Positions 11,431-14,444 of a stretch of 64,000 nucleotides of DNA are shown one piece after another. The notes below the pieces were generated by a model that was given only the letters and a program-made list of their open reading frames with translations, searched no databases and was not told the origin of the DNA. Within the stretch, counting starts at the first letter, position 1. The number at the start of each line of letters is the position of its first letter. This DNA comes from the human T2T-CHM13v2.0 reference genome, Homo sapiens, in NCBI RefSeq assembly GCF_009914755.1, contig NC_060930.1; one strand, 5' to 3'. A program made the translations under genes and the position numbers.

Positions 11431-12973
11431 CCTGATTTTTTTTTTAAAGACATGTTTTATATTTTCAGTAGTTTGAGCTATTGAGCTACCCTTTCTCTAC
11501 TTTGGACAAGCTTCTATTTATACAGAACCACAAGGAAGTGTTGGTTATGTTTTAAGTATGTTAATGTATGCTAAACTTGGCAAATTAATAATTTTAAACA
11601 CATTACATGCTTGAAATATGAATGGAAGGGTGTCTTTGGCAACTCTTGACAAGACTCTTAGCCTCAGCATTGTAGTCCTTGGTCATACATCCTGTATGTG
11701 CTGTGCAAATCACACATGTGCATATAAATGAAACGCTCCTTTAAGACTAGAACCAATTGTATTGTTATTAAACGGTCTCTGTATTCAAGACTGATGAAGT
11801 CACATGAATTCACTAGGTAACTGACAGGAAGTTCTAGTGAAATGTTTCAACAATATTTAACTGACACTCCCAAACAAAGGAAATAAAGTACCTCTCTGGC
11901 TGATGGAAGAAAAAGGTTTCTATTTAGTACCATTGGACTAAGAAAGCTTATCACTTTATTAGGAAGAGAAAGCGGACCATTTCTAGGCAGGTATTTTCTT
12001 GCAGAAGCAGCCTCTCACTGGAAGTCTTGCATCCCTGTGGAGGTACAGCCAGAATGCCTCATGAACAACACGGGCCACGCTGTGGTCAGCACAGGTGTGG
12101 TTAGCCTGAGACCGGCTACTCAGGCTCCAAGTGCAGTTCCAGCTCTATTGGTGTCAGTCATTCTTGTCATCTAATTTCAAGACAGCACGACACTGACTTC
12201 GCTTTTACTGCTGTGGTGTCAACGATCCCCCAGGTAAAGAATATAGTCCATTAACCTCTGAGAGTTTTCCTTCTGGGTTCTCTTCAGGGTCTTTGAAGTC
12301 AAAACTCTGCCCTTGAGCAAAAGCAGCTGCATCCATCCTATTCCCCAAATGGATATCAACACGAGAAGCCATTTTCATCCATGGTTCCCTGCGGCACTAA
12401 TAAGAGCTGCAGAAAGATTGAAAAGTGAAGATCGTATTGTTCTCAGAGGTGAGCTGAGCCACCGTCCACATAGACTTTAGGTAAACTCTCCAAGAAAGCC
12501 TGCTGAATCGTAAGCCATTGCTTTCTCCATCAAGTTCCAGTTTTTCTCTAGATCATTTTGTAACAACTGGCAAACACAGAAGAAGCGGGGAGGCATCTGT
12601 CAACTCGGGGTTGCACATGGCACGGCTCCTGTTGGCTGTTCTTCTGTTCGTAATAATGAATATCCACTCGGGTTCTGCCAGCTTCATCTTTGTGATCTCA
12701 GCAAATGTGTACATTCCAGAGATCCAGGAAAGATGGCTGCTTCATGGAGCTTCTGAATCACCCTGGGCTACTGACACACAGCCACTGGCACAGGTTCACA
12801 GAGCTAACATTTGATCACGTGGGTTCAGACCCTACTTATCAAGGGACTTCTCATCCACGACTGTGGGCAGGTCCTTGGGGACAGGGAAGCTTTCTCCTTC
12901 TGCTTTTTGATCCGTTATCTTTTCTTCAGCTTCTGCTGTTATTTATAGGTTCGCTTCAATATCTGAGATATTC

Positions 12974-13272
12974 TTTTTTTTTTTTTTTTTTTGAGACAAG
13001 AGTCTCACTCTGTCACCCAGGCTGGAGTTCAGTGGCGTGATCCCGGCTCATTGCAACCTCTGCCTCTGGCTTCAAGCAATTCTCTGCCTCAGTCTCCTGA
13101 GTAGCTGGGATTACAGGCGCCCACTGCCACGCCTGGCTAATTTTTTTTGTATCTTTAGGAGAGATGGGGTTTCACCATGTTGGCCAGGCTGGTCTTGAAC
13201 TCCTGACATCGTGGTCCATCCACCTCGGCTTCCCAAAGTGCTGGGATTACAGGTGTGAGCCACCGCACCTGG
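12974..13272 (-). mobile_element. Alu (AluS-type) inside the retro-insertion
   Basis: Antisense Alu; TSD GAGATATTCTTT at 12965 and 13275. Confidence 0.96.
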
Positions 13273-13618
13273 AGGAGATATTCTTTAATCTAGAAAGCAA
13301 ATACTAGTTTATATGAAGTACTTAGCAAAAAAAAAAAAAAAGCTAATTTTCTACAAATGTATATTTTCTGTATACTTGTTGATATTTTACTGTGCTTTTA
13401 TTTTCAGTCTTAGAAACAGGCAGCCAATATATAGAGCAACCTTCCTCAAACTTTTAATGTTAATCTCATGACCAAAGTAGAGAATCTCCCCCCACCAGCC
13501 CTCCTCTTCCAATCGAACTTACACACAAAGAGCTTTGCCTAAAGCAGGAAGTTATTTGCTCTACAGAGTTACGGGTAAAATCTTTATAAGGGTCTTTCGA
13601 GTTGTTTTATCCCAGTTA

Positions 13619-13910
13619 TTTTTTTTTTTTTAGACAGGGTATCACTCTGTCATCCAGGCTGGAGTGCAGTGGTGCGATCATGGCTCACTGCAACCTCCGC
13701 CTTCCAGGCTCAAGTGATCCTCCCACCTCAGGCTCCAGAGTAGCTAGGACAACAGTTGCATGCCACCACACCCAGCTAATTTTTGTATTTTCTGTATAGA
13801 CAGGGTTTCACTATGTTGCCCAGGCTGGTCTCGAACTCCTGAGCTCAAGTGATCTGCCCACTTCGGCCTCTCAAAGTGCTGAGATTACCAGGTATGAGCC
13901 ACCACACCCA
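13619..13910 (-). mobile_element. Alu (AluJ/S-type) inside the retro-insertion
   Basis: Antisense Alu; TSD-like CCAGTTATTTT / CCAGTGATTTT. Confidence 0.95.
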
Positions 13911-14444
13911 ACTCCAGTGATTTTTAAAAATTATTAAATGGATAAACAATTTCCTGGGAAGAAAAGAGCTACCCTTTCTCTACTTTGAAGAAAAGATAAA
14001 TTCATCGAGTCTGGGCTTTCTGTTTGAAGTTGAGGTTGTTCGAAGTCAGCAGTGGGGACAAAATTCCAGACAGTGGCTGCTCCTGTCTGGTCTCAGCCAG
14101 AGCCCCTTCTTAGTTCCTCAGGCCCTGCTCCTGGGACTCCTCCTAGACTCCCTGCAGCCCTCAGGCCTGGTCTCCTCATCCAATCAATCACCAAGTTCTG
14201 CTGACTCGACTTTTTCTTTTCTTTCTGGTTGGCCAGCCCTTCCATCTGTAGGACACGTGATGACTGTTTCGACTGTTTCTCCAGGACTTGTTCTCTAAAG
14301 GGAGTGACCAGTATTCTGAAGATATTTGTGGAAATGTCCCCATACAGGAGACCTGCAGTTTTGGCCGTTTGTCTGCCTACTCTTTGGTTTGCTATGTGGC
14401 CCTGAGAAAGTAATACATTAATACATTAATACAGAGATGCTCTC

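What the first reader, a model, noticed from the sequence alone, without database searches (positions are those of the whole stretch)
11483..13987. Twin-primed, 5'-inverted retrocopy of a non-repeat RNA with the priming complementarity still visible
Seen: (1) exact 22-bp direct repeats at 11483-11504 and 13966-13987, the first preceded by TT (TT/purine, L1-endonuclease-like); (2) ATTAAA at 13933-13938 and AAGAAAA just before the second repeat; (3) CCAAAGTAGAGAA at 13472-13484 is the exact reverse complement of 11493-11505, the 3' end of the left repeat plus one base. Established: in L1 twin priming the second target strand anneals inside the RNA, giving TSD - inverted segment - sense 3' segment - A tail - TSD. 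Inference: 11505-13471 is the inverted part and 13472-13965 the sense part. The source RNA should read ...AATAGAAGCTTGT-CCAAAGTAGAGAA-TCTCCCCCC... contiguously. A 12-13 nt match is unusually long for an internal primer. The parent locus is not recognisable to me.
Basis: partly seen in the sequence, partly recalled or inferred. Interest (0 to 1): 0.8.

Follow-up and report, generated by a model that had tools for sequence, protein, structure and literature searches.

The report
Old ADK pseudogene, recently half-inverted
An ancient, intron-less copy of the adenosine kinase gene lies in a LYRM4 intron with its front two kilobases turned round and perfect short repeats at the joints, so a very old sequence was rearranged recently by a mechanism that looks like L1 twin priming.

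Summary
The 22-mer occurs only at these two places in the whole T2T genome. The interior is a processed pseudogene of ADK (chr10). Its coding part and proximal 3'UTR lie on the minus strand (12964-11505). The next piece of the ADK 3'UTR lies on the plus strand (13472-13965).

The ages do not fit one simple retrocopy. The ADK-derived sequence is 72.5% identical to ADK (K2P 0.35) and has many indels. It also holds two Alus about 10% diverged. Yet the 22-mer pair and the 13-mer are perfect.

No second copy of the unit exists in this genome. A control query with the same tool found copies down to 66% identity. The flank after the right 22-mer also repeats a 14-mer from the pseudogene's first exon.

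My reading: a recent twin-priming-like rearrangement of an already old pseudogene, most likely in place (about 0.5). The main rival is a retrocopy of an old pseudogene transcript whose source locus is now lost (about 0.3). Outgroup genomes would settle it; none were available.

The parts
11483..11504 (+). Left copy of the exact 22-mer. It reads as 10 nt GAGCTACCCT plus 12 nt that are the reverse complement of the pseudogene's own 3'UTR 12-mer.
11505..12014 (-). ADK pseudogene, proximal 3'UTR. It is colinear with ADK from the stop codon to about 665 nt downstream.
   Evidence: z 6-7; 0 of 200 shuffles reach the score
12015..12942 (-). ADK pseudogene coding region. It has no introns, the start codon is decayed to ATA at 12940-12942 and the stop lies at 12015-12017. 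There are many frame breaks and one internal deletion.
12915..12928 (-). 14-mer TGAAGAAAAGATAA inside the exon-1-derived part. It is identical to 13986-13999 on the plus strand.
12965..13286 (-). Alu (12977-13274) with its own exact 12-bp target duplication GAGATATTCTTT. It sits just upstream of the pseudogene's start.
   Evidence: (D17)
13287..13471 (-). 185 nt upstream of the pseudogene with no detectable ADK similarity. It was turned round together with the pseudogene body and holds an A16 run at 13327-13341 (plus strand).
13472..13484 (+). 13-mer CCAAAGTAGAGAA. It is ADK-3'UTR-derived, forms the inversion junction, and is the reverse complement of 11493-11505.
13485..13965 (+). Distal ADK 3'UTR in sense orientation (13485-13615 and 13913-13965). 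It is interrupted by an antisense Alu (13616-13912), carries ATTAAA at 13933-13938 and ends in GAAGAAAA.
13966..13987 (+). Right copy of the exact 22-mer.
13986..13999 (+). Flank 14-mer TGAAGAAAAGATAA, spanning the last 2 nt of the right 22-mer and the first 12 nt of the flank. It is identical to the pseudogene's exon-1 14-mer. Its GAAGAAAAGA also repeats at 13958-13967.

Best explanation
The unit is an ancient processed pseudogene of ADK. It was once linear on the plus strand and already carried two Alus. It was rearranged in place within roughly the last 40 million years. Its upstream 2 kb (185 nt of flank, 5'UTR, coding region and proximal 3'UTR) were turned round about a break at the 3'UTR 13-mer. 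That left the 13-mer as an inverted duplication at both ends of the inverted piece.

In the same event, or soon after, a short templated patch was laid into the A-rich tail of the pseudogene. The patch copies the new left junction (10 nt of old flank plus 12 nt of the inverted 13-mer) and has a 10-nt stutter, GAAGAAAAGA. This produces the look of a 22-bp target-site duplication.

Shown: the ADK origin, the two orientations, the join at the 13-mer, the age gap, and the absence of any other copy.

Inferred: that the old pseudogene was already at this locus, and how the break was repaired. Two routes seem possible. One is staggered break and end remodelling of the kind described for L1 ORF2p-induced breaks. 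The other is both 3' ends priming on a single-stranded copy of the local sequence, with template switches.
For: 1. ADK origin without introns. Four ADK exons that lie up to 314 kb apart on chr10 abut on the minus strand (nhmmer E 4e-13, 1.4e-12, 1.7e-4, 2.4e-4). Exon 1 is also colinear, 33 of 48 positions. A PDB search gave an adenosine kinase hit at E 0.018.
2. Opposite orientation, contiguous in ADK.
3. The sequence is old. Identity is 72.5% over 520 coding nt, K2P 0.35, with 16 gap openings. The two internal Alus are 10.8% and 10.1% diverged at non-CpG sites from a window Alu consensus.
4. The repeats are young. They match at 22 of 22 and 13 of 13 positions, with sharp edges.
5. There is no other copy. 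Five queries covering 11505-12964, 13287-13471 and 13472-13618 found only themselves. The same tool found LYRM4 exon copies at 79, 69 and 66% identity.
6. The sequence at and beyond the right 22-mer is built from pieces of the pseudogene itself. The 14-mer and the three GAAGAAAAGA copies are confined to this unit, against 0.41 expected per window. This fits templated synthesis from a local template.
7. Passages of preprint 10.1101/2024.12.14.628481 describe local inversions of genomic DNA at ORF2p-induced breaks that keep a duplication like a target-site duplication.
Against: - No outgroup genome was available, so it is not shown that the pseudogene was at this locus before the event.
- The right 22-mer sits 494 bp from the inversion junction. 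The in-place reading therefore needs an extra templated insertion, or several template switches. A plain target-site duplication would explain it in one step.
- The left junction (GAGCTACCCT|TTCTC) shows no microhomology under this reading.
- The hypothetical empty site CTTTG/AAGAAAA looks like an L1 endonuclease site, which favours the insertion rival.
- In the published ORF2p cases a retroelement insertion sits at the junction. There is none here.
- A test for the old pseudogene's own decayed target duplication linking 13287-13330 to the right flank was uninformative: 24 of 316 and 94 of 1080 null windows scored as well.
Confidence: 0.5

Rival explanations
1. Insertion from elsewhere. An older linear ADK pseudogene at another locus was transcribed together with 185 nt of its upstream flank and its two Alus. 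That RNA was inserted here by L1 twin priming. The 22-mer is the target-site duplication. The top-strand 3' end (…TTCTCTACTTTG) annealed to the RNA's 12-mer and primed the inverted segment. The source locus was later lost.
For: - One known mechanism gives both 22-mers, the inverted 13-mer at the exact join, and the end at ATTAAA plus a short A-rich tail.
- A 22-bp duplication is ordinary in size. Passages of PMC12350158 give a median of 21 bp.
- The predicted empty site has CTTTG/AAGAAAA on the top strand, which is like an L1 endonuclease site (read).
- 5' inversion is common for L1: 639 of 2068 insertions in passages of PMC2912911.
Against: - No source copy exists in a complete genome, although the search tool finds copies at 66-79% identity. 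With perfect repeats, the source should be at least about 90% identical.
- A 12-nt primer match is far outside the usual range. About 70% of 5'-inverted L1 copies have 2-5 bp.
- The same paper's passages' inversion rare for Alu (1 of 5554) and SVA (4 of 477) and speak of few 5' inversions in trans-mobilised elements.
- The flank outside the duplication matches the RNA's exon-1 14-mer and its tail 10-mer. That needs either chance or target choice by annealing.
- The A tail is at most 7 nt.
Confidence: 0.3
2. One ancient event. ADK mRNA itself was twin-primed into this site more than 100 million years ago, and the repeats are the original target duplication and primer site.
For: The whole unit except 13287-13471 and the Alus is colinear with ADK mRNA.
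Against: - At the pseudogene's divergence (K2P 0.35), about a dozen differences are expected between two 22-mers. None is seen, and the 13-mer is perfect too.
- The edges of identity are sharp (D10).
- The 185 nt at 13287-13471 are not ADK.
Confidence: 0.03
3. Linear minus-strand pseudogene left in place. The ADK copy runs on from 11505 through the left 22-mer to the T10 run at 11436-11445 as its poly(A). The 13-mer and the right 22-mer are two unrelated small templated insertions.
For: - On the minus strand there is an A10 run 60 nt beyond 11505, with AATATAAAA 13 nt before it.
- AATCTC flanks the 13-mer patch and GAAGAAAAGA flanks the right 22-mer.
Against: - The in-place continuation rc(11446-11492) is no more like the next ADK 3'UTR piece than null windows: 940-1041 of 1526 score as well. 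13485-13965 is much more like it: 0-16 of 1810.
- The T10 run fits the target site of the neighbouring Alu at 11117-11433 (read).
Confidence: 0.04

Closest known systems
5'-inverted (twin-primed) L1-mediated retrocopies (Ostertag and Kazazian 2001, recalled; Kojima 2010, PMC2912911, passages read)
   Same: The layout is direct repeat, inverted 5' segment, sense 3' segment, A-rich end, direct repeat. The two segments are contiguous in the parent RNA. There is complementarity between the end of the left repeat and the RNA at the join.
   Different: The insert is about 27% diverged from its gene while the repeats are perfect. No near-identical source exists. The match is 12 nt where 2-5 nt is usual. 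The flank beyond the right repeat also copies the insert. The A tail is at most 7 nt.
Local inversions from remodelling of L1 ORF2p-induced double-strand-break ends (preprint 10.1101/2024.12.14.628481, passages read)
   Same: A kilobase-scale inversion of genomic DNA next to a staggered break, with the short overlap kept, here as inverted 13-mers at both ends of the inverted piece.
   Different: The published cases carry an L1 or cDNA insertion at the junction and are somatic or experimental. Here there is no retroelement at the junction, the event is in the germline and present in the reference, and there is an extra 22-mer copy 494 bp away.
Ordinary ancient processed pseudogenes
   Same: Intron-less, frame-broken copy of a housekeeping gene (ADK) in an intron, with later Alu insertions.
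   Different: It is split into two oppositely oriented parts with exact junction repeats.

Membership tests
Processed pseudogene (L1-mediated retrocopy of an mRNA) | Colinear with the spliced parent mRNA, introns absent | tested here: met
   ADK exons from C10:75022693, 75265467, 75396740, 75541653 and 75579812 abut in order on the minus strand.
Processed pseudogene (L1-mediated retrocopy of an mRNA) | Poly(A) tail at the 3' end of the copy | tested here: inconclusive
   Only GAAGAAAA at 13958-13965. The ADK AATAAA lies 821 nt after the stop and aligns just upstream.
Twin-primed 5'-inverted retrocopy | Two segments in opposite orientation that are adjacent in the source RNA | tested here: met
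   rc(11505-12012) matches ADK 3'UTR 0-665. 13485-13965 without its Alu matches 677-880 (0-16 of 1810 null windows score as well).
Twin-primed 5'-inverted retrocopy | Target-site duplication of the same age as the insert | tested here: not met
   The 22-mers match at 22 of 22, whereas coding identity to ADK is 72.5% (K2P 0.35) and the internal Alus are about 10% diverged.
Twin-primed 5'-inverted retrocopy | A source locus matching the insert about as well as the duplication copies match each other | tested here: not met
   Only self hits. The control found copies at 79, 69 and 66% identity.
Twin-primed 5'-inverted retrocopy | Short microhomology (mostly 2-5 bp) at the junction of target and inverted segment | tested here: not met
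   12 nt, or 13 with the next base. The usual range is from PMC2912911.
ORF2p break-end remodelling inversion | Inverted genomic segment whose far end carries the inverted copy of the staggered-break overlap | tested here: met
   The 13-mer at 11493-11505 and its reverse complement at 13472-13484 bound the inverted 11506-13471.
ORF2p break-end remodelling inversion | Retroelement or cDNA insertion, or a clear endonuclease site, at the break | tested here: not met
   No insertion lies between 13471 and 13472. TTTG/GA on the bottom strand is only a weak match to TTTT/AA (consensus as quoted in PMC2912911).
ORF2p break-end remodelling inversion | The same sequence present, uninverted, at the locus before the event | not testable with these tools
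   No primate or other mammalian genome is held.

The most novel reading that the evidence does not exclude
A 'twin priming in place'. A break at the A-rich tail of an old pseudogene was repaired when both 3' ends primed on a single-stranded copy of the neighbouring sequence itself, either the resected DNA flap or the local transcript. The polymerase switched templates several times. The result is a balanced 2-kb germline inversion dressed in repeats that mimic a target-site duplication, with no retroelement inserted and no copy gained. If so, some genomic features scored as 5'-inverted retrocopies with target-site duplications would in fact be in-place inversions.
Probability: 0.2. Interest if true: 0.7.

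Novelty: new variant of a known kind. Interest (0 to 1): 0.45.

Why it matters
The RefSeq table supplied with the finding does not annotate this ADK pseudogene. The case shows that the classical hallmarks of twin priming (flanking direct repeat, 5' inversion, primer complementarity) can surround a sequence far older than the repeats. Insertions dated or classed by their target-site duplications alone can therefore be misread. If the event happened in place, it is a germline example of break-end remodelling or templated repair so far described mainly in cancer genomes and L1-expressing cell clones. If it came from elsewhere, it is a retrocopy of a pseudogene transcript with an unusually long primer match and a vanished source.

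Tried and rejected
1. The 22-mer as part of a repeat family: rejected. There are only 2 genomic matches at up to 2 mismatches.
2. Old interspersed repeats crossing the boundaries. blastn of 11380-14300 against the window gave only Alu matches and the 22-mer. A genome search of 13966-14400 found only itself. Uninformative.
3. A linear minus-strand pseudogene running into the left flank: disfavoured.
4. The 14-mer pair as a target duplication of a 5'-truncated copy, with 13287-13471 as inverted target DNA: rejected. ADK exon 1 is colinear across the 14-mer, 33 of 48 positions.
5. The chr6:145.07 Mb match to the exon-1 motif as a possible source: rejected. It is only a 20-nt match, with no other ADK or pseudogene similarity.
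6. 13287-13471 as ADK 5'UTR or promoter: no alignment beyond exon 1.
7. Decayed target duplication of the old pseudogene: not significant.
8. Polymorphism. The one readable supplementary spreadsheet of PMC12350158 holds none of the coordinate prefixes 49714, 49715 or 49739, nor LYRM4 or ADK. Its PDF supplements could not be read.
9. Literature on an ADK pseudogene. There were 0 papers for 'adenosine kinase' + 'processed pseudogene' + 'chromosome 6'. There were 0 for ADKP1, 'ADK pseudogene' or 'adenosine kinase pseudogene'.
10. tblastx of the pseudogene against the ADK loci was too insensitive. nhmmer was used instead.
11. PDB searches with two other open reading frames gave no adenosine kinase hit.
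12. Only part of the ADK gene was fetched, so the middle exons were not aligned.

Full report
**Observation.** The window shows the exact 22-mer GAGCTACCCTTTCTCTACTTTG at 11483-11504 and 13966-13987. TT precedes the first copy. ATTAAA lies at 13933-13938 and AAGAAAA at 13959-13965. CCAAAGTAGAGAA at 13472-13484 is the exact reverse complement of 11493-11505. With up to 2 mismatches, the 22-mer occurs nowhere else in the 3.1-Gb genome in which the window lies. Its last 12 nt occur exactly three times in the window, all here, and no shuffle reaches the observed count.

**What the interior is.** One minus-strand ORF (12205-12396) hit human adenosine kinase in the PDB at E 0.018. A Pfam PfkB scan of the genome located the ADK gene on contig C10. 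nhmmer of the minus strand against the fetched ADK pieces found four exons in order:
- 12774-12607
- 12494-12334
- 12210-12126
- 12128-11978

The last two abut in the window although they lie 38 kb apart in the gene. A motif search found exon 1 at C10:75022693. It aligns to the minus strand around 12880-12945 at 33 of 48 positions, with the start codon decayed to ATA. The interior is therefore an intron-less ADK pseudogene. Over 520 aligned coding nt it is 72.5% identical to ADK, with K2P 0.35 and 16 gap openings. Substitutions are of all kinds: 79 transitions and 64 transversions. By general knowledge of mammalian neutral rates this puts it at the order of 100 million years. That dating is my inference.

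- Downstream of the stop codon, rc(11505-12012) stays colinear with the sequence after the ADK stop codon in blocks at 194-300, 337-370, 512-563 and 574-623. At the expected offset, 650-665 (AAACAAAAACTTGTC) matches AAATAGAAGCTTGTC. The z-scores are 6-7 and 0 of 200 shuffles reach the score.
- ADK then reads ATATAGGAATTTTTTTC.
- The plus-strand piece after the 13-mer (13485-13615 plus 13913-13965, Alu removed) was aligned to exactly that next stretch (677-880). It scored better than all but 0 to 16 of 1810 composition-matched null windows over four scoring schemes. Most of the signal lies near the ADK AATAAA at 821.
- The alternative continuation in place, rc(11446-11492), was no better than null: 940-1041 of 1526 windows score as well.

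The 185 nt at 13287-13471 show no ADK similarity.

**The age paradox.**
- The pseudogene is about 27% diverged from ADK.
- It carries two Alus at 10.8% and 10.1% non-CpG divergence from a consensus of 18 window Alus. That figure includes subfamily differences.
- Yet 22 of 22 and 13 of 13 positions are identical, and identity stops abruptly (D10).

If the repeats were as old as the Alus, about 4-6 differences would be expected over the 57 positions. At the pseudogene's age, about a dozen would be expected in the 22-mer pair alone. These figures are simple arithmetic on the divergences above and are inference. The event that made the repeats is therefore much younger than the ADK retrocopy and probably younger than both Alus.

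**No source copy.** Five queries found only themselves: 11505-12964, 11505-11990, 12300-12960, 13287-13471 and 13472-13618. As a control, the LYRM4 exon at 17757-18829 found copies at 79%, 69% and 66% identity with the same tool. A source of at least 90% identity would not have been missed.

**The flank is not independent of the insert.** The 14-mer TGAAGAAAAGATAA spans the last 2 nt of the right 22-mer and the first 12 nt of the flank (13986-13999). It is identical to the exon-1-derived 14-mer of the pseudogene at 12915-12928 on the minus strand. In ADK that stretch reads TGAGGAGGAGCCGA, so the pseudogene's version is the original. GAAGAAAAGA brackets the right 22-mer. All three copies in the 64-kb window lie in this unit, against 0.41 expected.

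Within a 2-kb sequence, isolated exact 10-mers are expected: about 4 direct and 4 inverted pairs per shuffle. Some 14-mer pair appears in 18 of 300 shuffles. Part of this could therefore be chance. Its placement at the junction argues otherwise.

A pre-existing target carrying 12 nt complementary to one site of the RNA, immediately followed by 12-14 nt identical to another site, is very unlikely. The exception would be a site chosen by annealing. Sequence synthesised from the pseudogene as template explains it directly.

**Explanations.** I favour an in-place rearrangement of an old, originally linear, plus-strand pseudogene (0.5). The upstream 2 kb were inverted about a staggered break at the 13-mer, which leaves inverted 13-mers at both ends. 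A templated patch that copies the new left junction was laid into the A-rich tail with a 10-nt stutter. Passages of a preprint on L1-induced rearrangements describe local inversions made by remodelling of ORF2p break ends that keep an overlap like a target-site duplication.

This reading has weak points. The right 22-mer needs extra template switches. The left junction has no microhomology. No retroelement sits at the junction.

The main rival (0.3) is a true twin-primed insertion of a transcript of an old pseudogene from another locus, since lost. It is mechanistically the neatest, and it fits the 22-bp size (median 21 bp in passages of PMC12350158) and the CTTTG/AAGAAAA site. It has four costs:
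- a vanished source;
- a 12-nt primer match, where about 70% of 5'-inverted L1 copies have 2-5 bp (PMC2912911);
- the matches between the flank and the insert;
- an A tail of at most 7 nt.

A single ancient event (0.03) and a linear minus-strand copy with two unrelated patches (0.04) are disfavoured.

**Limits.**
- No primate or other mammalian genome was available, so the empty-site test could not be run.
- Only part of the ADK gene was fetched, so the middle exons were not aligned.
- The Ostertag and Kazazian paper was not held and is cited from recall.
- Searches for a described ADK pseudogene found nothing. One readable supplement of a population structural-variant study holds no entry for this place; its PDF supplements could not be read.

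Noticed in passing
window 11117-11433: Minus-oriented Alu with its middle A-rich linker expanded to a run of about 40 T (11286-11325). It shows high apparent divergence, 26.6% at non-CpG sites against the window consensus. The T10 run at 11436-11445 fits the end of its target duplication.
   Followed up: partly
window 13327-13341: A pure A16 run on the plus strand inside the non-ADK 185 nt. It is not part of either Alu, and its origin is not explained.
   Followed up: no
window 11475-11488: GAGCTA occurs twice in tandem with a TT spacer (GAGCTATTGAGCTA) right at the start of the left 22-mer. This may be another small slippage or templated duplication.
   Followed up: no
window 17757-18829 (LYRM4 last exon): This exon has diverged copies at C1:99947566-99947991 (79%), C17:21472054-21472789 (69%) and C17:23131275-23131742 (66%), probably LYRM4 retrocopies. 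A piece of about 75 nt (query 302-399) matches at least 8 other loci and looks like an old interspersed repeat.
   Followed up: no
window 13462-13487: AATCTC occurs on both sides of the inversion junction (13462-13467 and 13482-13487). This is within chance for a 6-mer.
   Followed up: partly
L041 (G000:C6:145075703-145075723): A 20-nt exact match to ADK exon 1 on chr6q with no further ADK similarity, so a chance match.
   Followed up: yes
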